Source: a phage. From it: DNA of 64,000 bases. The translations under genes and the position numbers were made by a program. The notes under the pieces are model-generated. The model had not been told where the DNA came from, made no database searches, and saw nothing but the letters and a program-made list of their open reading frames with translations. Below are positions 4,219 through 56,836 of this stretch, piece after piece; position 1 is the first letter of the stretch; every line of letters starts with the position of its first letter. Location of the stretch: sequence record PZ445427.1; one strand, 5' to 3'.

Positions 4219-5595
4219 ATGACTATTGATATTAATAAGCTGAAGGAAGAACTTGGTCTGGGTGATCTGGCTAAATCTCTGGAAGGTCTGACTGCTGCTC
4301 AGAAAGCTGCGGAAGCTAAGCGTCTGCGTGAAGAGCAGGAAGAAAAAGAACTGGCTCGTATGAACGACCTAGTATCTAAAGCTGTTGGTGAAGACCGTAA
4401 GCGTCTGGAAGAAGCTCTGGATCTAGTTAAGAACCTGGACGAGAAGTCTAAGAAGAGCGCAGAACTGTTTGCACAGACTGTAGAAAAGCAACAGGAAACT
4501 ATCGTTGGTCTTCAGGACGAAATTAAGTCTCTGTTGGCAGCTCGTGAAGGTCGTTCCTTCGTTGGTGATAGCGTAGCTAAAGCTCTTTATGGCACTCAGG
4601 ATGCTTTCGAAGATGAAGTTGAGAAACTGGTTCTTCTGTCTTATATGATGGAGAAGGACGTATTCGAAACTGAACACGGTAAGGCTCACGTTAAAGCTGT
4701 TAACGGTTCTTCTTCCGTTTCCATGTCTAGCGAAGCATACGAAACTATCTTCTCTACCCGTATTATCCGTGACCTGCAGAAGGAACTGGTAGTTGGTGCA
4801 CTGTTCGATGAACTGCCAATGTCCAGCAAAATCCTTACAATGCTCGTTGAACCAGAAGCTGGTCGTGCTACTTGGGTAGATGCTTCCAAATTCGGTACTG
4901 ACGAAACTGTTGGTGACGAAGTTAAAGGTCAACTGACTGAAATCAGCTTCAAAACTTACAAGCTGGCTGCTAAGTCCTTCATCACTGATGAAACTGAAGA
5001 AGATGCAATCTTCTCCCTGCTGCCTCTGCTGCGTAAGCGTCTGATCGAAGCACACGCTGTTTCTATCGAAGAAGCTTTCATGTCCGGTAATGGTACTGGT
5101 CAGCCTAAGGGTCTGCTGAAACTAGCTGCTGATGATGGTGCTAAGGTTGTTACCGAAGCTAAAGCTGACGGTTCTGTTCTGGTAACTGCTAAGACTATCT
5201 CCAAGCTACGTCGTAAACTGGGCCGTCATGGTCTGAAACTGAGCAAACTGGTACTGATCGTATCTATGGATGCTTACTACGATCTGCTGGAAGATGAAGA
5301 ATGGCAGGATGTTGCCCAGGTTGGTAATGATGCTGTTAAACTGCAGGGTCAGGTTGGTCGTATTTATGGTCTGCCAGTTGTAGTTTCTGAGTACTTCCCA
5401 GCTAAAGCTGCTTCCGCTGAATTCGCAGTTATTGTTTATAAAGATAACTTCGTAATGCCGCGTCAGCGTGCTGTTACTGTTGAACGTGAGCGCCAAGCTG
5501 GCAAACAGCGTGATGCATACTACGTTACTCAGCGTGTTAACCTGCAACGTTACTTCGAAAACGGCGTTGTATCTGGTGCGTACGCTGCATCTTAA
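4219..5595 (+). CDS. Major capsid protein precursor with N-terminal coiled-coil scaffolding domain (pb8-like)
   Basis: 458 aa; N-terminal about 150 aa is charged coiled coil (KRLREEQEEKELARMNDL...), the rest HK97-like; host-like codon usage (ctg, cgt, gct) consistent with high expression; followed by a strong intrinsic terminator. Confidence 0.8.
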   Translation: MTIDINKLKEELGLGDLAKSLEGLTAAQKAAEAKRLREEQEEKELARMNDLVSKAVGEDRKRLEEALDLVKNLDEKSKKSAELFAQTVEKQQETIVGLQDEIKSLLAAREGRSFVGDSVAKALYGTQDAFEDEVEKLVLLSYMMEKDVFETEHGKAHVKAVNGSSSVSMSSEAYETIFSTRIIRDLQKELVVGALFDELPMSSKILTMLVEPEAGRATWVDASKFGTDETVGDEVKGQLTEISFKTYKLAAKSFITDETEEDAIFSLLPLLRKRLIEAHAVSIEEAFMSGNGTGQPKGLLKLAADDGAKVVTEAKADGSVLVTAKTISKLRRKLGRHGLKLSKLVLIVSMDAYYDLLEDEEWQDVAQVGNDAVKLQGQVGRIYGLPVVVSEYFPAKAASAEFAVIVYKDNFVMPRQRAVTVERERQAGKQRDAYYVTQRVNLQRYFENGVVSGAYAAS

Positions 5596-5614
5596 TACAG
5601 GCTTTTCAGCCGAT

Positions 5615-5642
5615 AAGGAGAGCTTCGGCTCTCCTTTTTTAT
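5615..5642 (+). terminator. Rho-independent terminator after the major capsid gene
   Basis: Hairpin aaggagagc-ttcg-gctctcctt followed by a run of six T. Confidence 0.75.
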
Positions 5643-5657
5643 TGGGAAAAATAAATG
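5635..5657 (+). promoter_or_regulatory. Conserved 23-nt element TTTTTTATTGGGAAAAATAAATG (copy 1), ending in the start codon of the next late gene
   Basis: Identical 23-mer recurs at 10656-10678; degenerate variant near 14410-14430; no Shine-Dalgarno sequence in front of the ATG. Confidence 0.5.
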
Positions 5658-6167
5658 CAAATCATCACTGTTGAAGATTATAAACTATATGGGAATTTAA
5701 AACGTCCTGATATGGAAACTCAGGTTGAGATGATGATTAAAGCTGCCAATACGCTGATTACAAGCCTTCTAGGTATGGATGATGCAGATGCGGTAGATCA
5801 ATTAATCACCACAAAACCTAGCCGTAGGAAATATTTCCTGAGTTCTCCTTCAGCCACATCTATTACAAAGATGACTATTAACGAGAATGAAATAGATCCG
5901 GAACAGTTTAAACTGTATCCTGATGGTGTTATTCTCCTTAAGTTTAATCCTCCTGAAGGATATATGGATGTAGAGTATACTCAAGGTGGTTTCAATCCAA
6001 TGCCTGAAGATCTTAAACTGGCAGCATGTCTGTTAGTAGATCACTGGCATAAGCAAGATTATCGTCAAGCCAAGACTATTGGTGGTGAGACAGTTACGTT
6101 TAACAATACTAAGTCTGGTATTCCAGAACATATTCGTACAATCATCGAAGTCTATAGGAGAGTGTAA
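5655..6167 (+). CDS. Head completion / head-tail connector protein (putative)
   Basis: 170 aa ORF directly downstream of the major capsid protein in the late operon; function assigned by synteny only. Confidence 0.45.
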   Translation: MQIITVEDYKLYGNLKRPDMETQVEMMIKAANTLITSLLGMDDADAVDQLITTKPSRRKYFLSSPSATSITKMTINENEIDPEQFKLYPDGVILLKFNPPEGYMDVEYTQGGFNPMPEDLKLAACLLVDHWHKQDYRQAKTIGGETVTFNNTKSGIPEHIRTIIEVYRRV

Positions 6168-6934
6168 TGGCTCTTTCTGATCTAGCTAGACAAATTATTA
6201 AAGAGCAGCTAGATACTGCAGGACGATCTGAGAATAATAAGAATACTGTTGTATATACAGTTGAGACTGGTTTGAAGGATCCTACAAGAGATGGCACAGT
6301 TGCACAGGTATCTTTCAAATTCTCAAAACCAGTATCACAAGACTTATTAAATGTTAGGACAGCATCTATACTGAAGGCTGTTTCTTCTAACTTAGATCTT
6401 TCTGGTGATTTAGGCGCTCTAGAGAATTTAATTCAAGCAACCGCAGGTAAACGTTCTGCTGTAGGTAAAAAACGTTCTACCGGTAGAGTTCAGGTAAACT
6501 TTGGAGATCCTAGAGATACTGAAGATGGCTATTCAGGTGCAGTAACAGGTGCTTCCGGTCGTTTCGTATCAAATAGTAACATGCGTGCTATTCTTGAGAT
6601 AGTAGCTAAGGAATACTTAATCAAGGATATGAAAAAAGCAGGGGCACCATTGAAGTTCAGAACTGGTCGCTTTGCTAACTCCTTAAAGATTAAAGATGTT
6701 ATGTTACGTGATGCAGAAACTAGTAAAGGTGCTCCAGAGCTGAATGTGACGTATAACTATATGGTTCGTCCTTACTCTGTGTTCAACCCCGCAGTTTCTA
6801 CATATCGAAGACTTTCTCTACGACCTTACCCTGGCGCTCGAAACCCTCAAAAACTTATTGGGGAAGCAATCGCAAAAGCTGCAAGAGACCTGATTCACTC
6901 TAGATATAAAATCAAGGTTAATCAAGGAACCTAA
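6167..6934 (+). CDS. Neck / tail completion protein (putative)
   Basis: 255 aa, ATGA-coupled to the upstream gene; function by synteny only. Confidence 0.4.
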   Translation: MALSDLARQIIKEQLDTAGRSENNKNTVVYTVETGLKDPTRDGTVAQVSFKFSKPVSQDLLNVRTASILKAVSSNLDLSGDLGALENLIQATAGKRSAVGKKRSTGRVQVNFGDPRDTEDGYSGAVTGASGRFVSNSNMRAILEIVAKEYLIKDMKKAGAPLKFRTGRFANSLKIKDVMLRDAETSKGAPELNVTYNYMVRPYSVFNPAVSTYRRLSLRPYPGARNPQKLIGEAIAKAARDLIHSRYKIKVNQGT

Positions 6935-6937
6935 TAA

Positions 6938-7423
6938 ATGGATCACAGAACAAGTATTGCACAAGCAGTGGTTGACCGAATCGCCACACAAATGGATGGT
7001 TCACAACCTGACGAGTATTTCAATAACCTTTATGGAAACGTTTCTCGTCAAACTTATAAATTCGAGGAAATCCGAGAATTTCCTTATGTGGCAGTCCATA
7101 TCGGAACTGAAACTGGGCAGTATCTTCCCTCAGGCCAACAGTGGATGTTTTTAGAACTTCCAATCCTCGTGTATGACAAAGAGAAAACAGATATTCAAGA
7201 GCAACTTGAAAAACTCGTAGCTGACATAAAAACCGTCATTGACACAGGTGGAAATTTAGAATATACTGTTAGTAAACCTAATGGATCGACCTTCCCATGT
7301 GAGGCAACTGATATGAGCATCACCTCAGTAGCTACAGATGAGGGTCTACTGGCCCCATATGGTTTAGCGGAAATAAATGTAACAGTGAGGTATCAGCCAC
7401 CTCGTAGGGCACTTCGCAGATAA
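6938..7423 (+). CDS. Tail completion / tail terminator protein (putative)
   Basis: 161 aa ORF immediately upstream of the tail tube gene. Confidence 0.4.
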   Translation: MDHRTSIAQAVVDRIATQMDGSQPDEYFNNLYGNVSRQTYKFEEIREFPYVAVHIGTETGQYLPSGQQWMFLELPILVYDKEKTDIQEQLEKLVADIKTVIDTGGNLEYTVSKPNGSTFPCEATDMSITSVATDEGLLAPYGLAEINVTVRYQPPRRALRR

Positions 7424-7449
7424 GTTACAGATTAGGAGAATATAAATAA

Positions 7450-8859
7450 ATGTCTTTACAACTATTACGTAATACTCGAATCTTCGTGTCTACGGTTAAG
7501 ACTGGTCACGATAAGACCAACACGCAAGAGATTCTAGTTCAAGATGATATTTCTTGGGGTCAGGACAGTAACTCAACCGATATTACTGTTAACGAAGCTG
7601 GTCCGCGTCCAACTCGTGGTTCAAAACGTTTCAACGACTCCCTGAACGCAGCTGAGTGGAGTTTCTCTACTTACATCCTGCCTTACTTAGATAAGACTAC
7701 TAGTAAGCAGATCGTTCCGGACTACATGCTGTGGCATGCTCTTTCTAGTGGTAAGCCTATCAACCTAGATGGCGATACAGGTGCTCACACTAACGAAACT
7801 AACTTCATGGTTAACTTTAAGGATAACGCATACCACGAGCTGGCAATGCTACATATTTACATCCTTACTGATAAAGCATGGAGCTACATCGATTCCTGTC
7901 AGATCAACCAGGCTGAAGTAAACGTTGATATCGAAGATATAGGTCGTGTAACTTGGTCAGGTAATGGTAACCAGCTGATCCCTCTGGACGCTGCTCCATT
8001 TGATCCTGATACTGTGGGTATTGATGATGAAACTTACATGACTATCCAGGGTTCTTATATCAAGAACAAACTGACTATCCTCAAAATTAAGGATATGGAT
8101 ACTGGTAAGGCATATGACATTCCGATCACTGGTGGTAGCTTTACAATTAACAACAACATCACCTATCTGACTCCTAACGTCATGTCCCGTGTTAACATCC
8201 CAATCGGTTCATTTACTGGTGCATTCGAGTTAACTGGTTCTCTGACCGCTTATCTTAACGATAAAGCTCTAGGTTCTATGGATCTGTATAAAGATCTGAT
8301 TAAGACCCTGAAGGTAGTTAACCGTTTCGAAATCGCTCTAGTACTTGGCGGTGAATATGATGATGAGCGCCCAGCCGCTGTTCTAGTTGCTAAGCAAGCT
8401 CACGTTAACATCCCAACTATTGAGACTGACGATGTACTTGGTACTTCTGTAGAGTTCAAAGCAATTCCTACTGATCTGGATACTGGTGATGAAGGTTATC
8501 TTGGTTTCTCTAATAAGTACACCAAAGCTACTATTGCAAATCTGATTGCAACTGGTGACGGTGGTAAAGCAGCTCCGGTTAAGGTAACAGGTATTACTGT
8601 TAAATCTGCGGGTGATGCAACTTCCGTCGAGAATAGTGCAACTCTTCAGATGACTGTAGATGTTTTACCTGCCGAAGCTACTAATAAGGAAGTAACTTGG
8701 TCTATTTCCTCTGGTACTGCTGCCACTATTGATGCAACTTCTGGGTTACTAACCGCTGATGCTTCTAAGACTGGTGCAGTTACTGTGAAAGCTGTAGCTA
8801 AAGATGGTTCTGGTGTAGAAGGTACTAAGAGCATTACAGTTACTGCTTCTGGTGGCTAA
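7450..8859 (+). CDS. Tail tube protein with C-terminal Ig-like (BIG2-type) domain (pb6-like)
   Basis: 469 aa; RBS AGGAG upstream; C-terminal about 90 aa with Ig-like features (VTGITVKSAGDATSVENSATLQMTVDVLPAEATNKEVTWSISSG); sits before the chaperone and tape measure genes. Confidence 0.7.
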   Translation: MSLQLLRNTRIFVSTVKTGHDKTNTQEILVQDDISWGQDSNSTDITVNEAGPRPTRGSKRFNDSLNAAEWSFSTYILPYLDKTTSKQIVPDYMLWHALSSGKPINLDGDTGAHTNETNFMVNFKDNAYHELAMLHIYILTDKAWSYIDSCQINQAEVNVDIEDIGRVTWSGNGNQLIPLDAAPFDPDTVGIDDETYMTIQGSYIKNKLTILKIKDMDTGKAYDIPITGGSFTINNNITYLTPNVMSRVNIPIGSFTGAFELTGSLTAYLNDKALGSMDLYKDLIKTLKVVNRFEIALVLGGEYDDERPAAVLVAKQAHVNIPTIETDDVLGTSVEFKAIPTDLDTGDEGYLGFSNKYTKATIANLIATGDGGKAAPVKVTGITVKSAGDATSVENSATLQMTVDVLPAEATNKEVTWSISSGTAATIDATSGLLTADASKTGAVTVKAVAKDGSGVEGTKSITVTASGG

Positions 8860-8863
8860 TTAA

Positions 8864-9763
8864 ATGTACTACTCTCTAATGAGGGAGTCAAAAGTTATAG
8901 TTGAGTATGATGGCAGGGCTTATCATTTTGATGCCCTGTCAAATTACGATATCAATACGTCCTATGAGGAATTTAAAACTCTTCGTAGGACTATCCATCG
9001 TAGAACCAACTATGCTGACTCTATTATTAATGCACAAACTCCATCTTCAATATCGCTGGCTATAAATTTTAGTAATACCCTTACTGAAGCTAACTTCTTT
9101 GAATGGATGGGCTTTGACCGAGAGGGTAACACATTCCTACTACCACTTTATAGTACAAATATTGAGCCAACAATGTTTAATATATACATAGTTAATAAAG
9201 ATAATAACTGTGTGTATTTTGAGAATTGCTATGTATCTACTGTAGACTTTTCTCTAGATAAAAGCGTTCCTATTCTAAACGTAGGAATTGAATCTGGTAA
9301 GTTCTCTGAGGTGTCTACTTTTACTCCTGCTGGTTCTATTGTTCAGGGTGAAGTTATGTCATATAGTCCTCCTAGAGTATCTACTAACAGTAACGTTTTA
9401 CCGGCTCTTTTATCCGCTTCTATGTCATTCCAGCAACAATGTTCTTGGAGAGAAGATAAAAGCGTATTTGACATAAACAAAATATATAATAATAAGAGAG
9501 CTTATGTTAATGAGATGAATGCTTCGGCAACAATTGCATTTTACTACACCAAGCGATTTGCTGGTGATATGTTTTATAATATTGAACCCGAAACTGACAT
9601 ACCATTAACCATCCGAAATGAACATATTTCGATTGACTTTCCTTCAGCACGTATAACAAAACGCCTACAATTCTCGGATATATACAGAGTTGAATGGGAT
9701 GTAATCCCTACTGCAGACTCTGATCCGGTAAGAATCGACTTCTTTGGAGAAATAAAGAAATGA
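8864..9763 (+). CDS. Tail protein (T5 p140-like, putative)
   Basis: 299 aa ORF between tail tube and tail assembly chaperone genes; assigned by position only. Confidence 0.45.
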   Translation: MYYSLMRESKVIVEYDGRAYHFDALSNYDINTSYEEFKTLRRTIHRRTNYADSIINAQTPSSISLAINFSNTLTEANFFEWMGFDREGNTFLLPLYSTNIEPTMFNIYIVNKDNNCVYFENCYVSTVDFSLDKSVPILNVGIESGKFSEVSTFTPAGSIVQGEVMSYSPPRVSTNSNVLPALLSASMSFQQQCSWREDKSVFDINKIYNNKRAYVNEMNASATIAFYYTKRFAGDMFYNIEPETDIPLTIRNEHISIDFPSARITKRLQFSDIYRVEWDVIPTADSDPVRIDFFGEIKK

Positions 9764-10164
9764 TCAATTTAAAAGATATTACCCTTGAAACTCGTACTAT
9801 TGAGCTGGCTTACCCAGGTATGCCTAACTTCAAGCTGCAACTGAACTACATGTCTCGTGCTGCATCTAAGCGTGTTATCTCTTCCGCTAAGCGTGACGAG
9901 TGGGTTAACGGTACTATGATTCAAGTTCAGGACGATGATAAGTTTATTGAAGCTTTCGTTGATACTGCAATTGCTGGCTGGACTGGCTTGACGATTGGAG
10001 ATGTTGAGAAGCTGATGCTTATCGAAACTGAAGCTGATCCTACTACTGAAGTTCCATTTAGTCGCGATAATGCTATCATGCTTATGCAGAACTCTGCTGC
10101 GTTTGATTCTTGGATCAACCAGACAGTGTTCCACTTAGACACTTTTCGTAGCTCAAAAGCGTAA
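9760..10164 (+). CDS. Tail assembly chaperone (putative, first of pair)
   Basis: 134 aa acidic ORF directly upstream of the tape measure gene, ATGA-coupled to the upstream gene. Confidence 0.45.
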   Translation: MINLKDITLETRTIELAYPGMPNFKLQLNYMSRAASKRVISSAKRDEWVNGTMIQVQDDDKFIEAFVDTAIAGWTGLTIGDVEKLMLIETEADPTTEVPFSRDNAIMLMQNSAAFDSWINQTVFHLDTFRSSKA

Positions 10165-10225
10165 GCAGTTACTAGATGCTGTTGCCGATTTTGCTGATAA
10201 ATGCATTAAATCATCAGCATCTAAA

Positions 10226-10594
10226 ATGACAAAACAACAATATTTAATGCTTTGTGAGTCGCTAGGTATTGAACCTGATCCTAAGGCAATGCCTGTTGAA
10301 CTCGAAGATTTTCCACCTATTGTATCTACTAGTATGAATATTTATAACAGTCTTATTGACTGTTTCATACCAGGTGACTTTCCTATCTTTATAGGAAAAG
10401 ACAAAAGTGCATTAGGTGTTTTATTTGATATCTATGGGATTACTGATCCTATAGAGAAAGAGTTTGTTCTACACATCATCAATATATTTGATTCGAAAGC
10501 TGTAGATGCAGCTCGTAAGAGAGCCGAGAAGCATAGTAAACCTAATGGTCGTACCCCGAACATTAAGCCACATGCTAGATCTCGAGCTCAGTAA
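10226..10594 (+). CDS. Tail assembly chaperone (putative, second of pair; possibly a frameshift extension product)
   Basis: 122 aa ORF upstream of the tape measure gene; no Shine-Dalgarno before its ATG; its reading frame is open upstream back to about 10139, overlapping the end of the previous ORF. Confidence 0.4.
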   Translation: MTKQQYLMLCESLGIEPDPKAMPVELEDFPPIVSTSMNIYNSLIDCFIPGDFPIFIGKDKSALGVLFDIYGITDPIEKEFVLHIINIFDSKAVDAARKRAEKHSKPNGRTPNIKPHARSRAQ

Positions 10595-10630
10595 AAAGTT
10601 TCCTCCAATGGGCGTTCCACGATGAGGCTT

Positions 10631-10661
10631 GGCTCTGGGTGATTTGCCCAGAGCCTTTTTT
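10631..10661 (+). terminator. Rho-independent terminator upstream of the tape measure gene
   Basis: Hairpin ggctctggg-tgatttg-cccagagcc followed by TTTTTT. Confidence 0.7.
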
Positions 10662-10678
10662 ATTGGGAAAAATAAATG
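10656..10678 (+). promoter_or_regulatory. Conserved 23-nt element TTTTTTATTGGGAAAAATAAATG (copy 2), ending in the tape measure start codon
   Basis: Identical to 5635-5657. Confidence 0.5.
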
Positions 10679-13600
10679 ACTGATAAGCTAATACGAGAAC
10701 TACTTATAGATGTAAAGCAGAAAGGGGCAACCCGTACTGCAAAATCTATTGAGAACGTTTCCGATGCGTTAGAAAATGCTGCTGCCGCTTCCGAACTGAC
10801 TAACGAGCAGTTGGGAAAAATGCCCAAAACTCTTTACTCCATTGAGAGGGCGGCGGATAGAGCAGCTAAAAGTCTAACAAAAATGCAGGCTAGCAGAGGT
10901 ATGATGGGTATCACCAAATCTATGGATAGTATTGGTGCTAAGTTAGATGACCTTGCTATTGCTATGATTGAGGTATCCGATAAGCTAGAGTCTGGATTTA
11001 CACATGTTGGTAAATCTGTTAAGGCGATGGGTAACGATGTAGCTGCTGCAACTGAAAAAGTTCAAGATAGATTATATGATACTAACCGAGCACTAGGTAA
11101 TACTGCTAGGGGCTTTAATGATACGACTACTGCAGCAGGACGTGCTAGTCGTGCAATTGGTAATACTTCTGGTTCAGCACGTGGTGCTACTCGTGATTTC
11201 GCAGCTATGGCTAAAGTGGGCGGTAGTTTGCCTCTTATGTATGCTGCTATCGCATCTAACGTGTTCGTTCTACAATCTGCCTTCGAACAGCTTAAGATGG
11301 GGGATCAGTTAAACCGTCTTGAGAAGTTTGGTACTATTGTTGGTACTCAAACAGGTACTCCGGTACAAACTCTAGCTAGATCCCTACAAGAGGCTGCTGG
11401 TTATGCAATTTCCTTCGAAGAAGCAATGAGACAGGCATCCTCTGCTTCTGCATATGGATTTGATGCTGAACAACTTAATAAATTTGGTCTAGTAGCTCGT
11501 CGTGCTGCTGCTGTTCTTGGTGTTGATATGACTGATGCACTTAACCGTGTAATCAAGGGTGTATCTAAACAAGAAATCGAACTTCTGGACGAACTTGGTG
11601 TTACTATTCGTCTTAATGATGCTTATGCTGACTACGTTAAACAGTTAAATGCTGCTAACACAGGTATTACATATAACGTTAATAGTCTCTCTACTTTCCA
11701 GAAGCAACAAGCATATGCTAACGCAGTAATCGCTGAATCTACTAAACGTTTCGGCTATCTTGATGATGTACTTCGTGCAACCCCTTGGGAACAGTTTGCT
11801 GCTAATGCTGATGCTGCACTGAGAAAGGTTCAACAGGCTGCTGCTAAGTATTTAGGGCCAGTAATTGATTCTATCAACGCAGTGTTCTATACTTCTCAAG
11901 CATCTATCTCGGCCTCTGCTGCTAGAGCACAGGAAGAAACTAACCGTCAGATTGACCCAACTAACGTTGGTGCTGTAGCTTTAAGTCTTTCCGCTTCTGA
12001 GGAAGGATATAATAAAGCTCTTGATATGTACAAAGAATCTCTAGAAAAGCGTAATAAGTTAAAAGCTGATCTAGATAAGCGTATGCAGCAAGCAGATGCA
12101 TCTACAGCAGGGGCTATTCGTTTAGTTGCTCAAGGTGCACCGGTAGGATTAGCTGCAGGAGGTTTTGAAGTAGGAGGAGTTCGCATAGGATCTTCTGAAG
12201 AAAACCAGAAATTCATTGCAGATACTGCTGCATTAGCTCTCCAGGTAGAGCGTCTTGATAAGGAAGTAGAGGATTCAACTGGCAATCTTAATGCATGGAA
12301 ATCGGCATACCAAGCTGCTGGTGCTGCAGCAGCCAAATCTAATACAGAATTCCAGAAGCAAATTAACCTACAGAAAGATGCAAATGACCCGGATGCGGTT
12401 TATGACTTTAACTCTGCAACTCTGAAAGGATTGACAGAACAGCAGAAAGCGTATGACCAAGCTAAGAAAACTGCCAGTGACTTAGCTAACGATATCCAGA
12501 ACATCGCTCAGAATACTAATACTGCGGCTAAAACTAGTGCATCCCTATCAGATACGATTAAGACTATTGAGTCTCTTTCTGCGGGTACTGGTAAAAATGC
12601 TGATGAGTATGTTAAGAGCCTGAACTTAGGGTATAATACTCTTAGTGAGATGAAGACTGCTTCACAAGCTCTTGCTGGTTACGTAAAATTAACTGGTAAT
12701 GAGACTAAGAATCAGTTAGAAGTTCAGCAGAAGATTGCAGAAGTATACAACCAGACTAAGGACAAAGAGAAAGCACAGGAAGCTGGTAGACGTCTGGAAA
12801 TCCAACAGTTAGAAGAACAGGAAGCAGCTCTTAAGCGTGTCCTAGAAACTAACAAAGGTAACAAAGCAATCGAAGGTGAAATAGCTAAGATTCAGTTAGA
12901 ACGTATCAAAGTTACTAACCAGGGTATGGAAGCCCAGAAGAAGGTTAAGGACTATACGGATAAGATTCTTGGTGTTGATCGTGAAATTGCTCTCCTGAAT
13001 AACCGTACTATGACAGATACTCAGTATCGTTTAGCTCAGTTGAACCTTGAACTGACTGTCGAGAAAGAGAAATACGCATGGTATACTAAGCAAGCAGATA
13101 AGCAGAAAGAAGCAGAACAGTCAAGACGTGCTCAGGCACAGATTGAACGTGAAATCTGGAAATTCCGTCAGGATCAGCAAAGGGAAATGGCTGCTGGCAG
13201 GGAGGAGGAGCAACAAAGAAAATTTACTGCAAATCCTTTAATGGGAGCTGCGGAACGTATCAAGGAGCAAATCCAGTTATTCGAAGACCTTAAGCAAAAA
13301 ACTTTAGGGAATGCTGCTGCTCAGCTAGAATATAACAAAAAGCTAGCAGAAACTAGAGCCCAGCTTGCGGCTCTAAGAGTACAGCGTGATGCAGAAATGC
13401 AGTCTTCTGTAGGTGCAGCTGTAGGGGCTACGTATACTCCTACTACTGGATTAACTGGAGAAGATAAAAACTTCGCAGATATGCAGAATAGAATGGCATC
13501 TTACGACCAGGCTATTTCTAAGCTGTCTGAGCTGAACTCCGAAGCAACTGCTGTAGCACAAAGCATGGGTAACCTAACTAACGCTATGATCCAGTTCTCT

Positions 13601-14383
13601 CAAGGATCTCTGGATACCACTTCTCTAGTAGCGGCGGGTATGCAAACTGTATCTTCAATGATTCAGTATAGTGTTGGTCAACAGGTAAGTGCTATTGATG
13701 CAGCTATTGCAGCAGAACAGAAACGTGATGGTAAATCTGAGCAATCCAAAGCTAAGATCAAGAAGTTAGAGGCTGAAAAGCTCAAGATCCAGCAAGATGC
13801 GGCTAAGAAGCAAATCATTATCCAGACGGCAGTAGCGGTGATGCAGGCAGCAACAGCTGTTCCGTATCCATTCTCTATTCCTCTGATGGTTGCGGCTGGT
13901 TTAGCAGGTGCTATGGCTCTTGCTCAAGCATCCTCTGCATCTGGTATGTCTTCTATTGGGGACTCTGGTGCTGAGACAGCTGGTTACTTAACTCTTGGAG
14001 AGCGCCAGAAGAACGTAGACGTTTCTATGTCGGCTAACGCAGGAGAACTTTCTTATATTCGAGGTGATCAAGGGATTGGTAATGCTAACTCTTTCGTACC
14101 TCGTGCAGAAGGTGGTAATATGTATCCTGGAGTTAGTTACCAGATGGGTGAGCATGGTACCGAAGTAATCACTCCTATGGTTCCGATGAAGGCTACTCCT
14201 ACTGATGAACTCAAAGGATCTTCAAAGGGTACATCGGGTAGACCTATTGTGCTGAACATCAGTACGATGGATGCGGCTAGCTTCCGAGACTTTGCTTCGA
14301 GCAACAGTGCTGCTTTCAGGGATGCCGTGGAACAGGCTCTTAATGAGAATGGAACCACCCTGAAATCACTTGGTAATTCTTAA
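10676..14383 (+). CDS. Tail tape measure protein (pb2-like)
   Basis: 1235 aa, largely alpha-helical coiled coil with a hydrophobic/Gly-rich stretch (VAVMQAATAVPYPFSIPLMVAAGLAGAMALAQASSASG) typical of tape measure proteins; position between chaperones and distal tail protein. Confidence 0.85.
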   Translation: MTDKLIRELLIDVKQKGATRTAKSIENVSDALENAAAASELTNEQLGKMPKTLYSIERAADRAAKSLTKMQASRGMMGITKSMDSIGAKLDDLAIAMIEVSDKLESGFTHVGKSVKAMGNDVAAATEKVQDRLYDTNRALGNTARGFNDTTTAAGRASRAIGNTSGSARGATRDFAAMAKVGGSLPLMYAAIASNVFVLQSAFEQLKMGDQLNRLEKFGTIVGTQTGTPVQTLARSLQEAAGYAISFEEAMRQASSASAYGFDAEQLNKFGLVARRAAAVLGVDMTDALNRVIKGVSKQEIELLDELGVTIRLNDAYADYVKQLNAANTGITYNVNSLSTFQKQQAYANAVIAESTKRFGYLDDVLRATPWEQFAANADAALRKVQQAAAKYLGPVIDSINAVFYTSQASISASAARAQEETNRQIDPTNVGAVALSLSASEEGYNKALDMYKESLEKRNKLKADLDKRMQQADASTAGAIRLVAQGAPVGLAAGGFEVGGVRIGSSEENQKFIADTAALALQVERLDKEVEDSTGNLNAWKSAYQAAGAAAAKSNTEFQKQINLQKDANDPDAVYDFNSATLKGLTEQQKAYDQAKKTASDLANDIQNIAQNTNTAAKTSASLSDTIKTIESLSAGTGKNADEYVKSLNLGYNTLSEMKTASQALAGYVKLTGNETKNQLEVQQKIAEVYNQTKDKEKAQEAGRRLEIQQLEEQEAALKRVLETNKGNKAIEGEIAKIQLERIKVTNQGMEAQKKVKDYTDKILGVDREIALLNNRTMTDTQYRLAQLNLELTVEKEKYAWYTKQADKQKEAEQSRRAQAQIEREIWKFRQDQQREMAAGREEEQQRKFTANPLMGAAERIKEQIQLFEDLKQKTLGNAAAQLEYNKKLAETRAQLAALRVQRDAEMQSSVGAAVGATYTPTTGLTGEDKNFADMQNRMASYDQAISKLSELNSEATAVAQSMGNLTNAMIQFSQGSLDTTSLVAAGMQTVSSMIQYSVGQQVSAIDAAIAAEQKRDGKSEQSKAKIKKLEAEKLKIQQDAAKKQIIIQTAVAVMQAATAVPYPFSIPLMVAAGLAGAMALAQASSASGMSSIGDSGAETAGYLTLGERQKNVDVSMSANAGELSYIRGDQGIGNANSFVPRAEGGNMYPGVSYQMGEHGTEVITPMVPMKATPTDELKGSSKGTSGRPIVLNISTMDAASFRDFASSNSAAFRDAVEQALNENGTTLKSLGNS

Positions 14384-14387
14384 TACT

Positions 14388-14418
14388 GGAGGAGGACTTT
14401 ATGTCCTCCTTTTCTTTA
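14388..14418 (+). terminator. Rho-independent terminator after the tape measure gene
   Basis: Hairpin ggaggac-tttat-gtcctcc followed by a T-rich run. Confidence 0.7.
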
Positions 14419-14436
14419 TGGAAAAATAAAAATTTC

Positions 14437-14465
14437 TTGATAAAATTTTCCAATCCTATTATAAT
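14437..14465 (+). promoter_or_regulatory. Sigma70-like promoter upstream of the distal tail protein gene
   Basis: TTGATA, 17-nt spacer, TATAAT; AGGAG RBS before the ATG at 14492. Confidence 0.5.
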
Positions 14466-14491
14466 ATTGTTATTAAGAGGAGAAATTAACT

Positions 14492-15106
14492 ATGAGACTA
14501 CCAGACCCATACACGAACCCAGAGCTATCAGGGTTAGGTTTTGAAAGCGTTAACTTAGTAGACAATGACCCTATGATTCGTGATGAATTACCTAATGGTA
14601 AAGTTAGGGAGGTTAAGGTGTCTGCTCAATATTGGGGTATTAATATCTCTTATCCAGAATTATTCCCAGATGAATTTGCTAAATTAGACTCATTCATTCT
14701 AGATTATAAAAGAACAGGTAGCTATATTGATGTGTTATTACCACAATATGAAGCTTTCCGAGTTCGTGGTGATACTAGTGCTGTAAATATTCCTGCTGGA
14801 CAAAAAGGTTCAACAGTTATTATGGACACTAAAGGTACACTTCGTGGACTGCCTAAACCAGGCGATTTATTTAAATTGTCCAACCATCCAAAAGTGTATA
14901 AAATCACTTCTATCAACACAGCAGGAAATACTTGGAATATAAGTGTTTATCCTGATCTATTCATTACTACTACGGGTAGTGAGAAACCGGTATTTAATGG
15001 TATTCTGTTTAGAACTAAATTAATGAACGGAGACAGTTTTGGCTCTACGTTAAATAGTAATGGTACATATACTGGTATTTCACTTTCCTTGAGGGAAAGT
15101 CTATGA
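14492..15106 (+). CDS. Distal tail protein (pb9-like)
   Basis: 204 aa (size as I recall for T5 pb9), directly after the tape measure gene and before the baseplate hub. Confidence 0.65.
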   Translation: MRLPDPYTNPELSGLGFESVNLVDNDPMIRDELPNGKVREVKVSAQYWGINISYPELFPDEFAKLDSFILDYKRTGSYIDVLLPQYEAFRVRGDTSAVNIPAGQKGSTVIMDTKGTLRGLPKPGDLFKLSNHPKVYKITSINTAGNTWNISVYPDLFITTTGSEKPVFNGILFRTKLMNGDSFGSTLNSNGTYTGISLSLRESL

Positions 15107-30198: not shown

Positions 30199-30237
30199 AA
30201 GTTAAAAAGAAAGGGAGCCGTAGCTCCCCTTGGTTTA

Positions 30238-31366: not shown

Positions 31367-31393
31367 TTTTGTCTCTCATCAATTTATGTATAT

Positions 31394-31423
31394 ATTATAC
31401 ATTAAATCGGGAGGATTTGACAA
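31394..31423 (-). promoter_or_regulatory. Early sigma70 promoter (proximal) for gene 31004-31366
   Basis: On the - strand TTGTCA, 18-nt spacer, TATAAT, followed by the T5-type leader ...AAATTGATGAGAGAC... and the ATG. Confidence 0.6.
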
Positions 31424-31494
31424 GTACAATTTTTATTTTTCTGCTTCGGACTTTCTTATCAATCCGAAACTTTCTCTCTCAAATTTATGTGTAT

Positions 31495-31523
31495 ATTATA
31501 CAATAATTATGAGCAGTTGCCAA
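31495..31523 (-). promoter_or_regulatory. Early sigma70 promoter (distal duplicate) downstream of the HNH gene
   Basis: On the - strand TTGGCA, 17-nt spacer, TATAAT, followed by ATAAATTTGAGAGAG leader but no adjacent ORF. Confidence 0.55.
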
Positions 31524-31531
31524 ATGCAATT

Positions 31532-38886: not shown

Positions 38887-38939
38887 TCTCCTTTGCACGC
38901 TTTCGTGCCTTCTAAATGCAAAAAGGGGAAGGAGCATAG

Positions 38940-38968
38940 CCCCCTCCCCTTAGGTTTAATTTACCAGA
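38940..38968 (-). terminator. Intrinsic terminator after gene 38969-39736
   Basis: On the - strand a GC-rich hairpin (GGGGAGG...CCTTCCCC) followed by TTTTT. Confidence 0.6.
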
Positions 38969-40508: not shown

Positions 40509-40538
40509 CAAATTTCTTCCTTATCAATTTATATAAAT

Positions 40539-40567
40539 ATTATAGCAAGTATTTAAGCATTTAGCAA
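40539..40567 (-). promoter_or_regulatory. Early sigma70 promoter inside the ligase spacer, driving the C-terminal ligase fragment
   Basis: On the - strand TTGCTA, 17-nt spacer, TATAAT, then ...AAATTGATAAGGAAG... RBS. Confidence 0.6.
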
Positions 40568-40710
40568 CTACAATTTTAACTAACTTTGCTTACCCTCGCC
40601 ATAACTTTCTATCCCTCAACTGAATGATAATAGTATATACCTAAGCGGCGAAAATGTCAATAACCACTTTATAATTCCGACATGGTAAACGGGTAGCAAA
40701 GGGTTACGAA

Positions 40711-41875: not shown

Positions 41876-41960
41876 AATTGATCCTCTCATCAATTTATAT
41901 AAATATTATATATGAAAACTGAGTCGAAAGCAAGTACATTTATAAAGAAAAAGCCAAGAA

Positions 41961-42269
41961 CTAGGCATTCTTGGCTTTGAGTTCTTCAGCTCGTTTCTGT
42001 ACTTCATGCAAGACCTCGGATTCACTGAGGATTTGCGTAAAAGCGTAGAATAGCTGTGACGTAGTTTCTAGGGTATAAGGAAAAGAGAAGCCGGATTTCG
42101 TTGGAAACCACTCTCCAGTAATATCTTGGAGCCAGTAACGAATTCCCATGTATAGATTCCCACGAAATTCAGATACGGTTAGTCTTACTTGTTCTCCCTC
42201 CTTCTCCCAAAGCATGATGGACTGGTCGTCAACGTGTCCTTCATAGTTTTGATTTACCTGATCGCTCAT
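41961..42269 (-). CDS. PC4-like ssDNA-binding protein (putative)
   Basis: 102 aa; segment VRLTVSEFRGNLYMGIRYWLQDITGEWFPTKSGFSF matches the PC4/Sub1 core pattern (v.vs.F.G...idIReYw...g...PgkKGisl); terminator hairpin embedded in the 3' end. Confidence 0.55.
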   Translation of the reverse strand: MSDQVNQNYEGHVDDQSIMLWEKEGEQVRLTVSEFRGNLYMGIRYWLQDITGEWFPTKSGFSFPYTLETTSQLFYAFTQILSESEVLHEVQKRAEELKAKNA

Positions 42270-42284
42270 TTACATATCCCAAAT

Positions 42285-42310
42285 ACACAAAAAGCCCCAT
42301 ATAGGGGCTA
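42285..42310 (-). terminator. Intrinsic terminator after gene 42320-42616
   Basis: Hairpin agcccc-atat-aggggct with T-tract on the - strand. Confidence 0.6.
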
Positions 42311-43063: not shown

Positions 43064-43170
43064 ATTTTTCGATTTCCTTAATTAAGAATTAAACAGAATA
43101 GTTCTTTCAAACTATGAGAATATTATATCAAGAATTACAGGATTAAGCAACTGAAATTTTTCAGTAACTG

Positions 43171-43425
43171 CTACACATCTAGTTCAACGATCTCCCAATC
43201 GTCGGCCAGAGCTTCGTCTAGAGTTAGCTCAGTGGTTTTCCACGATGCATCGTCTAGCGTGAGTTTAGTACGCCCATCTTTAGACCACCACCAAGTAAAT
43301 TCTATAATGTCGTTATTATCAACATCTACTTTGATGATAGTGGTAGAATAAGTATTATTTTCCCAGCTATCTCGCTGGAGATATTTTACGTCTCCAGCTT
43401 TTAACAGATCAGTTAGTTTACTCAC
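43171..43425 (-). CDS. Hypothetical small acidic protein
   Basis: 84 aa, acidic C-terminal half (DEALADDWEIVELDV); overlaps the upstream gene by 8 nt. Confidence 0.4.
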   Translation of the reverse strand: MSKLTDLLKAGDVKYLQRDSWENNTYSTTIIKVDVDNNDIIEFTWWWSKDGRTKLTLDDASWKTTELTLDEALADDWEIVELDV

Positions 43426-44122: not shown

Positions 44123-44153
44123 ATTTAAACTCCTCTCTCAAATTTATGAATCT

Positions 44154-44182
44154 ATTATACAGAAAAATTTTCCTAAAAGCAA
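44154..44182 (-). promoter_or_regulatory. T5 PN25-type strong early promoter
   Basis: The - strand reads TTGCTTTTAGGAAAATTTTTCTGTATAATAGATTCATAAATTTGAGAGAGGAGTTTAAATATG, nearly identical to the PN25 sequence as I recall it. Confidence 0.8.
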
Positions 44183-44190
44183 ATAAATTT

Positions 44191-47197: not shown

Positions 47198-47693
47198 AAC
47201 AATACTCCTATGTTGGTTATTCGGATATCTTTCTTTAGGACTATTCAAAAGAATAGAACAACTATTACTACCATTTACACAAACATTAATCATCATCAAG
47301 CAGTATGAATAAGTTATCATACCTCAGTGCTGCGCTCTCTTAACTCTTATCCAGATCAGAACCTAGGTCATTGGCCGCTAAGCCGATTCTGATTGCCCTC
47401 ACTATCCTATTGGTAGGTGGCTACTGGACGTGTCACCATTCGCTGCTCTTTTCGTTCGCACCCCCATATAAAGCTCTGCCTATATAACGAGCTAAATATG
47501 CACGGTTTGGATTTACCTTTCCGAATTCAGGGTACGCAGATCACTTAATTGATAATTAACTAATGCAGTATAAACACTAGTAATAGTTAAAACAACCCTT
47601 AATGGGGCAGCCTAACTGTTCCGTATTGCGGATTGTAAACAAGAAAAATTAGCAAAATCAATTTTTACTAATGTCTCTCAATTCAATATAAAT

Positions 47694-47722
47694 ATTATAT
47701 CAAGATTTTGAGCATCCTGCAA
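47694..47722 (-). promoter_or_regulatory. Sigma70 promoter with no adjacent ORF, heading into the long untranslated region
   Basis: On the - strand TTGCAG, 17-nt spacer, TATAAT, followed by ATTTATATTGAATTGAGAGAC leader; next credible start codon is 370-500 nt downstream. Confidence 0.5.
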
Positions 47723-47760
47723 GTAAAATTTTTCCGAAGGTGCTATCAGTGTCTTTGAGC

Positions 47761-51026: not shown

Positions 51027-51054
51027 AGCTTTCTCCTCTCAAATTTATAAATCA

Positions 51055-51083
51055 ATTATACATAAGTTTTAGCTCGAAAGCAA
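51055..51083 (-). promoter_or_regulatory. Early sigma70 promoter for gene 50745-51026
   Basis: On the - strand TTGCTT, 17-nt spacer, TATAAT, then ...ATAAATTTGAGAGGAG... and ATG. Confidence 0.6.
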
Positions 51084-51087
51084 ATAA

Positions 51088-51118
51088 AATAAAAGCCAGG
51101 TCGACTAGCAACCTGGCT
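51088..51118 (-). terminator. Intrinsic terminator after nrdD
   Basis: On the - strand hairpin AGCCAGG...CCTGGCT followed by TTTTATTTTATTT. Confidence 0.65.
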
Positions 51119-56807: not shown

Positions 56808-56836
56808 AAGGAGATCTTCGGGTCTCCTTTTTCTTT
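56808..56836 (+). terminator. Intrinsic terminator after nrdA
   Basis: Hairpin ggagatc-ttcg-ggtctcc followed by TTTTTCTTT. Confidence 0.75.

What the first reader, a model, noticed from the sequence alone, without database searches (positions are those of the whole stretch)
5635..5657. Identical 23-nt element TTTTTTATTGGGAAAAATAAATG after two late-operon terminators
The same 23-mer follows the terminator hairpin after the major capsid gene (5635-5657) and the one upstream of the tape measure gene (10656-10678). In both cases it supplies the ATG of the next gene, and neither gene has a Shine-Dalgarno sequence. A related version (TTTTCTTTATGGAAAAATAAAAATTT) follows the terminator after the tape measure gene at about 14410-14430. 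Exact 23-nt identity in non-coding DNA is unlikely by chance and suggests a shared late promoter, transcription re-initiation site, or SD-independent translation initiation signal immediately after attenuating terminators.
Basis: seen in the sequence. Interest (0 to 1): 0.5.

Follow-up and report, generated by a model that had tools for sequence, protein, structure and literature searches.

The report
Terminator tail fused to weak ribosome site
The repeated 23-base element in this T5-like phage is real and anciently conserved, but it is the U-rich tail of a transcription terminator joined directly to a weak ribosome-binding site and start codon, an ordinary way to turn expression down for low-copy virion proteins, not a promoter.

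Summary
The 23-mer, which is actually a 25-nt exact repeat, lies at 5633-5657 and 10654-10678, and none is expected by chance. The window is a T5-like phage (Epseptimavirus, 99.7% identical to vB_EcoS_Ace). Each copy follows a strong terminator hairpin and ends in the ATG of the head-completion gene or the tape-measure gene.

The element has three parts: TTTTTTATT is the terminator U-tract, GGGA is a weak Shine-Dalgarno motif (-4.2 kcal/mol, 7-nt spacer), and AAAATAA-ATG is the A-rich start context common in this phage. Across Demerecviridae both junctions keep the layout hairpin, T-tract, G-rich motif, 4-11 nt, ATG. Distant relatives carry canonical GGAG, GAGG or AGGAGG where this phage has GGG. 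GenBank curators of Klebsiella phage Shiner annotated these same bases as terminator plus RBS.

No sigma-70 promoter fits the element, and a promoter inside it could not transcribe the ATG it contains. The real promoters of the phage are near-consensus repeat families. The third "related" copy at 14410-14435 is the A/T-rich upstream region of a strong promoter at 14437-14465.

The repeat is not a recent duplication. It is conserved in at least five genera and is better conserved than the flanking genes. The degree of conservation remains unexplained, and a shared trans-acting factor is not excluded.

The parts
4219..5595 (+). Major capsid protein gene, the high-copy gene upstream of junction 1
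   Evidence: ORF. Annotated as major capsid protein in vB_EcoS_Ace.
5615..5634 (+). Junction 1 terminator hairpin: stem GGAGAGC, loop UUCG, stem GCUCUCC, with flanking A-U extension
   Evidence: Terminator scan. MFE fold. Invariant in most Demerecviridae examined. Annotated as 'terminator' in relatives.
5635..5643 (+). TTTTTTATT, the U-tract of terminator 1 (first 9 nt of the 23-mer)
   Evidence: In Klebsiella phage Shiner the annotated terminator feature runs through the equivalent ATT.
5644..5647 (+). GGGA, a weak Shine-Dalgarno motif for the head-completion gene
   Evidence: Duplex with the anti-SD is -4.2 kcal/mol at a 7-nt spacer. Canonical SD motifs occupy the homologous position in distant relatives. 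GGGT is annotated as the RBS in Shiner.
5648..5657 (+). A-rich spacer AAAATAA plus the ATG of the head-completion gene (5655-6167)
   Evidence: The N-terminus aligns from residue 1 in all relatives. TAAATG precedes or forms the start of 7 of 16 late genes.
10226..10594 (+). Small ORF upstream of junction 2, probably the frameshift-expressed part of the tail assembly chaperone (no SD of its own)
   Evidence: The genes at the same position are annotated as tape measure chaperones in Pantoea phage AAS21.
10631..10655 (+). Junction 2 terminator hairpin: GGCUCUGGG, loop, CCCAGAGCC
   Evidence: Compensatory stem changes among genera. Annotated as a terminator in Providencia phage PR1 and Klebsiella phage Shiner.
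10656..10678 (+). Second copy of the 23-mer: U-tract 10656-10664, GGGA 10665-10668, spacer 10669-10675, ATG 10676-10678 of the tape measure gene (10676-14383)
14388..14419 (+). Terminator after the tape measure gene (hairpin plus TTTTCTTTAT tail)
14420..14465 (+). A/T-rich upstream stretch GGAAAAATAAAAATTTC, then a sigma-70 promoter with -35 TTGATA (14437-14442), 17-nt spacer and -10 TATAAT (14460-14465).
   Evidence: Promoter scan gives 11 of 12 matches. The promoter is conserved in relatives, but the A-rich stretch is not conserved beyond close relatives.
14475..14494 (+). Strong SD AAGAGGAG and the ATG (14492) of the next tail gene, in contrast with the two weak junction TIRs
   Evidence: -9.1 kcal/mol.
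7239..7267 (+). Near-consensus late promoter TTGACA-17-TATACT inside gene 6938-7423, ahead of the tail tube gene. It shows what a late promoter looks like in this phage.
   Evidence: From my memory of the published sequence (not checked with a tool), the surrounding sequence matches T5 promoter PJ5. PJ5 is reported as late in PMC7472727.
42267..42309 (-). Analogous junction on the minus strand: hairpin AGCCCC-UAUAU-GGGGCU, tail TTTTTGTGTATT, TGGGA, TATGTAA, then the ATG of a 102-aa ORF (42269 to 41961)

Best explanation
Each copy is a compact junction of two ordinary signals, inherited from the common ancestor of the enterobacterial T5-like phages. The first 9 nt (UUUUUUAUU) are the U-tract of an intrinsic terminator. 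Inferred: that terminator stops most transcripts coming from a high-copy gene block (the capsid gene at junction 1; the tail tube to chaperone genes at junction 2). Inferred: polymerases that read through make an mRNA in which the next 14 nt form the translation initiation region of the following low-copy gene (head-completion/adaptor protein; tape measure protein). That region consists of a weak Shine-Dalgarno GGGA, a 7-nt unstructured A-rich spacer and the AUG. Inferred: partial termination combined with a weak ribosome site steps expression down twice. The flanking U- and A-rich single-stranded sequence probably helps 30S/S1 binding despite the weak SD. What is shown: the anatomy, the conservation, the positional equivalence of GGG with canonical SDs in relatives, and the absence of promoter features. 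What is inferred: partial termination, the dependence of the downstream genes on read-through, and the expression step-down.
For: The repeat is exact and both hairpins are canonical. GGGA pairs with the anti-SD at -4.2 kcal/mol with a 7-nt spacer. That is weaker than most late genes (-6 to -11) but similar to the genes at 1869, 8864 and 17953. Family-wide survey: in about 35 distinct Demerecviridae-like contigs most show both junctions as hairpin, T-tract, G-rich motif, 4-11 nt, ATG, with 17-29 nt (mostly 18-23) from hairpin to ATG. One Vibrio-phage lineage (L130, L131, L134, L154) shows no terminator before the tape-measure gene. The G-rich motif ranges from GG(G)A to GGAG, GAGG, GGGAG, AGGAG and AGGAGG, with energies of -3.3 to -11.5 kcal/mol. 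The Shiner GenBank record annotates the terminator up to ATT, and GGGT and GGA as the RBSs at the two junctions. A third junction of the same design exists on the minus strand at 42309-42267. TAAATG is the start context of 7 of 16 late genes. The element is largely unstructured apart from the terminator, and no fold is conserved. In T5 itself a mobile ORF replaced the 3' part of the element at junction 2, and the tape measure gene there uses caGGAaaacattagATG, another weak GGA plus A-rich TIR. No promoter-like site lies between the capsid gene stop and 7239, or between 10594 and the tape-measure start. The few exact copies in unrelated genomes also sit between a hairpin and an ATG.
Against: Conservation is stronger than a terminator tail plus a weak RBS would normally require. 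The intergenic regions are 71-89% identical where flanking coding DNA is 50-79% identical. In Pantoea phage AAS21 (L035) the junction-1 intergenic region (71%) is less conserved than the capsid-gene end (79%). The 49 nt of hairpin plus element are 48/49 identical in Providencia phage PSTCR5, whose capsid protein is only 53% identical. TTTTTTAT and GG are invariant at both junctions in all enterobacterial genera. In Tequintavirus-type genomes the spacer at junction 2 is 10-11 nt, which is long for an SD. No transcript ends, read-through rates or translation rates were measured. No T5 transcriptome with mapped ends was found.
Confidence: 0.75

Rival explanations
1. The shared sequence is an operator for a common trans-acting RNA-binding factor, either a phage translational repressor or activator or a host factor. 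Hfq is one candidate, since it binds a U-rich stretch next to a hairpin and an (ARN)n tract such as AAA-AAU-AAA. CsrA (GGA) and S1 are others. The factor would co-regulate head-completion and tape-measure synthesis. This adds to the terminator/RBS reading and does not replace it.
For: The non-coding sequence is unusually well conserved at both junctions relative to the flanking genes. The same sequence is kept at two unlinked junctions in several genera. The motif composition fits the known Hfq and CsrA preferences; that point rests on my own knowledge and is not a test.
Against: The 3' half varies freely in sequence and length among genera (AAAATAA, AAATTC, AAAATC, AATATA, TAAAAT, plus 3 nt in T5-type phages). 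This pattern fits a compositional constraint better than a specific operator. Distant relatives replace the motif with plain strong SDs. T5 lost the 3' part at junction 2 without losing the gene. No candidate factor was identified.
Confidence: 0.12
2. The element is a late promoter or transcription re-initiation site that restarts transcription after each terminator.
For: It sits right after terminators. The loosely similar third copy is next to a real promoter.
Against: No -35/-10 pair lies at or near either copy. The element includes the ATG, so a promoter within it could not produce an mRNA carrying that start codon and its RBS. [quoted passage not shown] The promoter families of the phage are long, near-consensus and unrelated to the element (D1-D3 and D6). 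At the third site the similarity is not conserved in other genera although the promoter is.
Confidence: 0.03
3. Conservation and identity are driven by DNA-level processes. The sequence would be a target or recombination junction for homing-type mobile genes, and co-conversion would homogenise it among phages and between the two sites.
For: ORFs of one family (CapR homology domain plus treble-clef zinc finger) are inserted at both junctions in some relatives. In L005 and L007 the insertion lies between the capsid gene and terminator 1. In T5 it lies exactly after TTTTTTATT at junction 2. L005 and L024 carry ATTATTAGG in place of ATTGGG at junction 1.
Against: Homing enzymes exploit conserved sites and do not create them. 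The two copies show independent lineage-specific changes within one genome (for example Kamaji, Shiner, AAS21 and T5-type phages), so there is no sign of concerted evolution. Twenty-five nt is too short for efficient ectopic conversion. Most genomes have no insertion.
Confidence: 0.05
4. The hairpin plus the AU-rich single strand is mainly an mRNA processing and stability module. RNase E would cut in the AU-rich stretch, leaving the capsid mRNA protected by a 3' hairpin.
For: A stable stem-loop next to an unstructured A/U-rich segment is the usual RNase E context (general knowledge). Capsid mRNA needs to be abundant.
Against: Nothing specific supports it. The hairpin plus U-tract is a textbook intrinsic terminator, which already yields a hairpin-protected 3' end. 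A cut inside the element would destroy the downstream TIR.
Confidence: 0.05

Closest known systems
Intrinsic (Rho-independent) terminators used as intercistronic attenuators in phage late operons
   Same: GC-rich hairpin followed by a 9-nt U-tract directly after a high-copy structural gene. The downstream low-copy genes have no promoter of their own. Relatives' records annotate the feature as a terminator.
   Different: Termination efficiency and read-through are not measured here. The hairpin at junction 1 is unusually invariant across genera.
Weak Shine-Dalgarno translation initiation regions helped by A/U-rich, S1-binding flanks
   Same: A 3-4 nt SD core (GGGA or GGA) at the proper distance, an A-rich unstructured spacer and U-rich sequence upstream. 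Canonical SDs occupy the same position in distant relatives.
   Different: The U-rich 'enhancer' here is the terminator tail itself, so two signals share 23 nt. S1 dependence is inferred and was not tested.
T5 sigma-70 promoters with A/T-rich upstream regions (PN25/PG25/PJ5 type; UP-element-like)
   Same: Only the third copy (14420-14436) resembles this. It is an A/T-rich block immediately upstream of a near-consensus -35/-10 pair.
   Different: The two exact copies have no -35/-10 hexamers and end in a start codon.
Translational operators of phage RNA-binding repressors (for example T4 RegA sites overlapping AU-rich TIRs)
   Same: A short AU-rich sequence overlapping the start codon, shared by more than one gene.
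   Different: No repressor is known or was found for T5-like phages. The 3' half of the element is conserved only in composition.

Membership tests
Intrinsic terminator | Stable GC-rich stem-loop | tested here: met
   Hairpins at 5615-5636 (9 pairs, UUCG loop) and 10631-10655 (11 pairs, 7 GC). They dominate the MFE and centroid folds.
Intrinsic terminator | U-tract immediately 3' of the stem | tested here: met
   TTTTTTATT starts at the base of both stems.
Intrinsic terminator | Stem maintained in evolution by compensatory changes | tested here: met
   At junction 2 the stems are GGCTCTGGG/CCCAGAGCC, GGCCTAGGG/CCCTAGGCC, AGCCTTGG/CCAAGGCT and GCTCTAGGCG/CGTCTAGAGC. The junction 1 stem is mostly invariant, so it is uninformative, apart from AGAGAGC/GCTCTCT in L007.
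Intrinsic terminator | Transcripts actually end in the U-tract | not testable with these tools
   No T5-family 3'-end mapping was found in the paper library.
Shine-Dalgarno translation initiation region | Purine-rich motif complementary to the 16S 3' end, 5-10 nt before the start codon | tested here: met
   GGGA with a 7-nt spacer gives -4.2 kcal/mol, which is weak. In T5-type genomes the spacer at junction 2 is 10-11 nt, which is borderline.
Shine-Dalgarno translation initiation region | The ATG is the true, conserved start | tested here: met
   It is the first in-frame start of each ORF. Protein similarity begins at residue 1 or 2 in all relatives. It is annotated as the start in 8 GenBank records.
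Shine-Dalgarno translation initiation region | Homologous position holds recognisable SDs in relatives | tested here: met
   AGAGG, GGAG, GAGG, GGGAG, AGGAG and AGGAGG occur at the same place after the T-tract. The RBS features in Shiner also fall there.
Shine-Dalgarno translation initiation region | Site accessible in the mRNA | tested here: inconclusive
   Mean unpaired probability over -13..+3 is 0.46-0.74. Only weak A-U pairings are predicted, and they are not conserved.
Sigma-70 promoter (T5 late promoter) | -35 and -10 hexamers 16-18 nt apart | tested here: not met
   No promoter-like site overlaps 5600-5700 or 10630-10740 at 9 or more of 12 matches. The nearest is a 9/12 site at 10749, inside the tape measure gene.
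Sigma-70 promoter (T5 late promoter) | Transcription start upstream of the RBS and ATG it serves | tested here: not met
   The element itself contains the RBS and the ATG, and the hairpin abuts it on the 5' side.
Sigma-70 promoter (T5 late promoter) | Resemblance to the promoter families of the phage | tested here: not met
   Repeat families D1-D3 and D6 (early promoters) and the promoters at 7239 and 14437 share nothing with the element.
UP-element-like upstream promoter region | A/T-rich block at about -40 to -60 of a functional -35/-10 pair | tested here: met
   Met only for the third copy, 14420-14436, upstream of TTGATA-17-TATAAT. Not met for the two exact copies.
Recent local duplication / mobile repeat | Copies restricted to close relatives, with flanks sharing homology or target-site duplications | tested here: not met
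   The element is present at both junctions in Epseptimavirus, Tequintavirus, Priunavirus, Sugarlandvirus and Serratia phage Kamaji, and at junction 2 only in Pantoea phage AAS21. The flanks of the two copies are unrelated.
Described structured RNA family (Rfam) | Significant covariance-model match | tested here: not met
   Only chance-level matches (E of 0.48 or higher, far below gathering scores) in 5400-14600.

The most novel reading that the evidence does not exclude
The two junctions share a genuine cis-regulatory RNA operator. Under this reading, the invariant UUUUUUAU..GG core next to a terminator hairpin, together with the A-rich tract, is recognised by one trans-acting factor, either a phage protein or host Hfq, CsrA or S1. 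That factor would coordinate read-through and/or translation of the head-completion and tape-measure genes. This would explain why the non-coding DNA is better conserved than the neighbouring genes across genera.
Probability: 0.12. Interest if true: 0.55.

Novelty: new member of a known kind. Interest (0 to 1): 0.25.

Why it matters
It gives a concrete picture of late-operon organisation in T5-like phages: promoter, high-copy gene, terminator, then a weak RBS and a low-copy gene, used twice. It corrects the tempting reading that the repeat is a promoter. For annotation, the GGG(A) should be called the RBS and the T-run should be called part of the terminator. For phage engineering, these two 45-nt modules are natural, evolutionarily stable expression step-down parts. 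The one point of real curiosity is the extreme conservation of the junctions, which could hide an additional layer of post-transcriptional control in a model phage whose late regulation is still poorly understood.

Tried and rejected
1. Promoter reading: the consensus scan found nothing at the element, and comparison with the phage's own promoter repeat families showed no similarity.

2. Conserved RNA structure: single-sequence folds, RNAalifold and per-relative folds gave only the terminator hairpins. No conserved pairing involved the element, and the weak U-tract/A-tract pairing showed no covariation.

3. Long-range masking of the SD by the conserved upstream UUUCCUCC box: considered, but it is not predicted consistently and a nearer GAGG partner competes.

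4. Rfam: no match.

5. Literature: a search for the literal sequence gave one irrelevant C. elegans paper. Searches for T5 transcript maps gave no TSS or 3'-end data for these sites.

6. Wider distribution: an exact 20-mer scan of IMG/VR found 51 copies in T5-like contigs, never more than 2 per contig, plus 4 other loci. A 22-mer scan of 596 Gb of bacterial genomes gave 8 hits in AT-rich MAGs and none in enterobacteria. That rate makes the non-T5 hits compatible with chance. This includes the striking case of a marine siphovirus with terminator, identical 23-mer and tape-measure ATG.

7. More copies in the genome: none in the window or in the rest of the vB_EcoS_Ace genome.

8. Automated junction extraction by ORF size and MFE was too noisy. 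I replaced it with a hand-checked table.

9. Covariation counting on alignment A3 was not run, because the 3' arms of the terminator are out of register in the MAFFT alignment.

Full report
**Observation.** The sequence TTTTTTATTGGGAAAAATAAATG occurs exactly twice in the window, at 5635-5657 and 10656-10678 on the + strand. No other match appears at up to 3 mismatches, and no match appeared in 100 dinucleotide-preserving shuffles. The repeat finder extends the identity to 25 nt (5633-5657 and 10654-10678) and lists the sequence at 14408-14432 as a 76% copy. Both exact copies start at the foot of a terminator-like hairpin, at 5615-5636 and 10631-10655. Both end in the first in-frame ATG of an ORF, 5655-6167 and 10676-14383.

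**Identity of the sequence.** The region is 99.7% identical to Escherichia phage vB_EcoS_Ace (Demerecviridae, Epseptimavirus), and 541 phage records match it. In that record the genes are major capsid protein (window 4219-5595), head completion protein (5655-6167), two small ORFs, tape measure protein (10676-14383) and tail proteins. In Pantoea phage AAS21 the two small ORFs at that position are annotated as putative tape measure chaperones.

**Anatomy of the 23-mer.**
- Bases 1-9 (TTTTTTATT) are the U-tract of the terminator.
- Bases 10-13 (GGGA) pair with the 16S anti-SD at -4.2 kcal/mol and lie 7 nt before the ATG.
- Most late genes score -6 to -11 kcal/mol, but the genes at 1869, 8864 and 17953 are equally weak.
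- Bases 14-23 are AAAATAA-ATG. The hexamer TAAATG is the start context of 7 of the 16 late genes listed.

The statement that neither gene has a Shine-Dalgarno sequence is therefore too strong. They have a weak one.

**Relatives.** I extracted both junctions from 30 IMG/VR contigs found with the head-completion protein. I added seven GenBank phages of other genera and about 20 more distant contigs found with a capsid-protein profile.
- The element is present at both junctions in Epseptimavirus and Tequintavirus. In Tequintavirus-type genomes junction 2 has three extra bases before the ATG.
- It is also present at both junctions in Priunavirus (PSTCR5, PR1), Sugarlandvirus (Shiner), Serratia phage Kamaji and contig L132. 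Pantoea phage AAS21 has it at junction 2 only.
- Lineage-specific changes differ between the two copies within one genome, so there is no sign of concerted evolution.
- More distant members (Vibrio phages and environmental contigs) mostly keep the layout hairpin, T-tract, G-rich motif, 4-11 nt, ATG at both junctions, but the G-rich motif is GGAG, GAGG, GGGAG, GGGGG, AGGAG or AGGAGG. One Vibrio-phage lineage (L130, L131, L134, L154) has no terminator before the tape-measure gene. Anti-SD energies run from -3.3 to -11.5 kcal/mol, and the hairpin-to-ATG distance is 17-29 nt, mostly 18-23.
- GGG(A) therefore sits at the SD position. The curated record of Klebsiella phage Shiner annotates the terminator up to the ATT, and GGGT and GGA as the ribosome-binding sites of the two genes.
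- A third junction of the same design lies on the minus strand of the window: hairpin 42309-42293, then TTTTTGTGTATTTGGGATATGTAAATG, which starts a 102-aa ORF.

**Not a promoter.**
- The scan finds no -35/-10 pair at either copy.
- A promoter within the element would start transcription after the ATG it contains.
- T5 uses host sigma-70 polymerase for all gene classes, and strong sigma-70 promoters are found in front of its early and late genes (PMC7472727).
- The window shows what such promoters look like. TTGACA-17-TATACT at 7239-7267 has surroundings that match the published PJ5 late promoter; that match is from my memory and was not checked with a tool. TTGATA-17-TATAAT lies at 14437-14465, and the early-promoter repeat families are D1-D3 and D6.
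The next gene has a strong SD, AAGAGGAG. In other genera the promoter is kept but the similarity to the element is not.

**Not a recent duplication.**
- Besides its wide distribution, the non-coding DNA is mostly better conserved than its flanks. Against five other genera, junction 1 is 71-83% identical versus 54-79% for 150 nt of flanking coding DNA. Junction 2 is 76-89% identical versus 50-70%. In Pantoea phage AAS21 (L035) junction 1 (71%) is less conserved than the capsid-gene end (79%).
- Megablast found only the 49 nt of hairpin plus element in Providencia phage PSTCR5 (98% identity, one 1-nt indel). Its capsid protein is 53% identical and its relative PR1's head-completion protein 28% identical.
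- In a ten-genus alignment of junction 2, TTTTTTAT and a G of the GG are invariant.

**Distribution outside the family.**
- An exact 20-mer scan of IMG/VR gave 26 junction-1 and 25 junction-2 copies, never more than two per contig. It also gave four other loci.
- One of these, present as two near-identical contigs, is a marine siphovirus. There a different terminator is followed by the identical 23-mer and the ATG of its tape measure gene.
- A 22-mer scan of 596 Gb of bacterial genomes gave 8 hits in AT-rich MAGs, several again between an inverted repeat and an ATG.
- That background rate makes the non-T5 hits compatible with chance. They also show that this is simply what a terminator tail fused to an A-rich start region tends to look like.

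**Structure.** Apart from the terminators, no conserved fold involves the element. Predicted pairings are weak A-U helices that differ among relatives, and the TIR is about half unpaired on average. Rfam has nothing here.

**Mechanism.**
- Shown: two canonical terminators each abut a weak-SD initiation region of a low-copy virion gene. The arrangement is ancestral to the family.
- Inferred: most transcripts end in the U-tract after the capsid gene and after the chaperone gene. Read-through transcripts are translated inefficiently from GGGA plus the A-rich spacer, probably helped by S1 binding to the U/A-rich single strand. Head-completion and tape-measure proteins are therefore made in small amounts relative to capsid and tail-tube proteins.
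- No promoter-like site lies between 5595 and 7239 or just before 10676, so these genes appear to depend on read-through.
- T5 itself supports the generic nature of the 3' half. A mobile ORF inserted after TTTTTTATT at junction 2, and the tape-measure gene there uses caGGAaaacattagATG.

**What remains unexplained.**
- The degree of conservation is unexplained, especially the invariant junction-1 hairpin and the invariant TTTTTTAT..GG.
- Possible reasons are a dual role of the U|G boundary in termination, a shared RNA-binding factor (probability about 0.12), or DNA-level processes linked to mobile genes.
- ORFs of one family (CapR homology domain plus treble-clef finger) are inserted at junction 1 in L005 and L007 and inside the element at junction 2 in T5.

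**Verdict.** The feature is real and anciently conserved, but it is mechanistically ordinary: the U-tract of an intrinsic terminator fused to a weak ribosome-binding site. The promoter and re-initiation readings are rejected. The translation-signal reading is right in substance, but the signal is SD-weak rather than SD-independent. Interest is low to moderate at 0.25.

Noticed in passing
window 10595-10630: A box between the chaperone stop codon and the junction-2 terminator, (A)AGTTTCCTCCAATGGGCGTTCCACGATGAGGCTT, is almost invariant across at least six genera (TT.CTCCA, GGGCGTTCCA and GAGG conserved) although the flanking genes diverge to 50-60% identity. It contains an anti-SD-like CCUCC and an SD-like GAGG that can pair. 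There is no Rfam match and no function is known.
   Followed up: partly
L008 (phage T5) 14990-15770; L005 9344-9943; L007 9376-9948: ORFs of one family (Pfam CapR homology domain plus a treble-clef zinc finger; probably mobile or homing-type genes) are inserted at both junctions in some relatives. In T5 the insertion lies exactly inside the element, after CCTTTTTTATT. In L005 and L007 it lies between the capsid gene and terminator 1. L005 and L024 have ATTATTAGG instead of ATTGGG at junction 1.
   Followed up: partly
L043 9511-9560 (minus strand of locus) and L074; IMG/VR contigs 3300032255_000005 and 3300032254_000181: An unrelated marine-type siphovirus (its tape measure protein is 32% identical to that of Pseudoalteromonas phage AL) has a different terminator hairpin (GCCGC-TTTTAA-GCGGC). 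The hairpin is followed by the identical 23-mer, and its ATG starts the tape measure gene. The background rate of the 22-mer in 596 Gb of bacterial genomes makes chance plausible, but the context is striking.
   Followed up: partly
window 42267-42309 (- strand): Another terminator-to-start junction of the same design in the early region: AGCCCC-TATAT-GGGGCT, then TTTTTGTGTATTTGGGATATGTAAATG, which starts a 102-aa ORF (42269 to 41961).
   Followed up: partly
window 10226-10594 and 9760-10164: The ORF at 10226 has no SD at all (+1.2 kcal/mol). It follows a 134-aa ORF, and in Pantoea phage AAS21 the two equivalents overlap and are both annotated as tape measure chaperones. This looks like the usual frameshift-expressed G/GT chaperone pair.
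   Followed up: no
window 5615-5636, 14388-14412, 56808-56829, 38923-38951 (-), 30210-30231 (-): Many terminators of this phage have SD-like 5' arms (AAGGAG, GGAGGAGG, AAGGGGAG) paired to anti-SD-like 3' arms (CUCCUU). Two of them (5615 and 56808) share the stem-loop type AAGGAGA.C-UUCG-G.UCUCCUU.
   Followed up: no
window 31373-31528, 40520-40590, 41884-41938, 43119-43173, 44133-44187, 47691-47745, 51036-51088: Repeat families D1-D3 and D6 are the reverse complements of T5-type early promoters (TTGCTT-N17-TATAAT followed by ATAAATTTGAGAG). From my memory of the published sequences, they resemble PN25/PG25.
   Followed up: no
window 5600-5612: A small hairpin GGC-N5-6-GCC just upstream of terminator 1 keeps its stem while the loop varies among genera (ttttca, aatat, tatact, taaact).
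   Followed up: no
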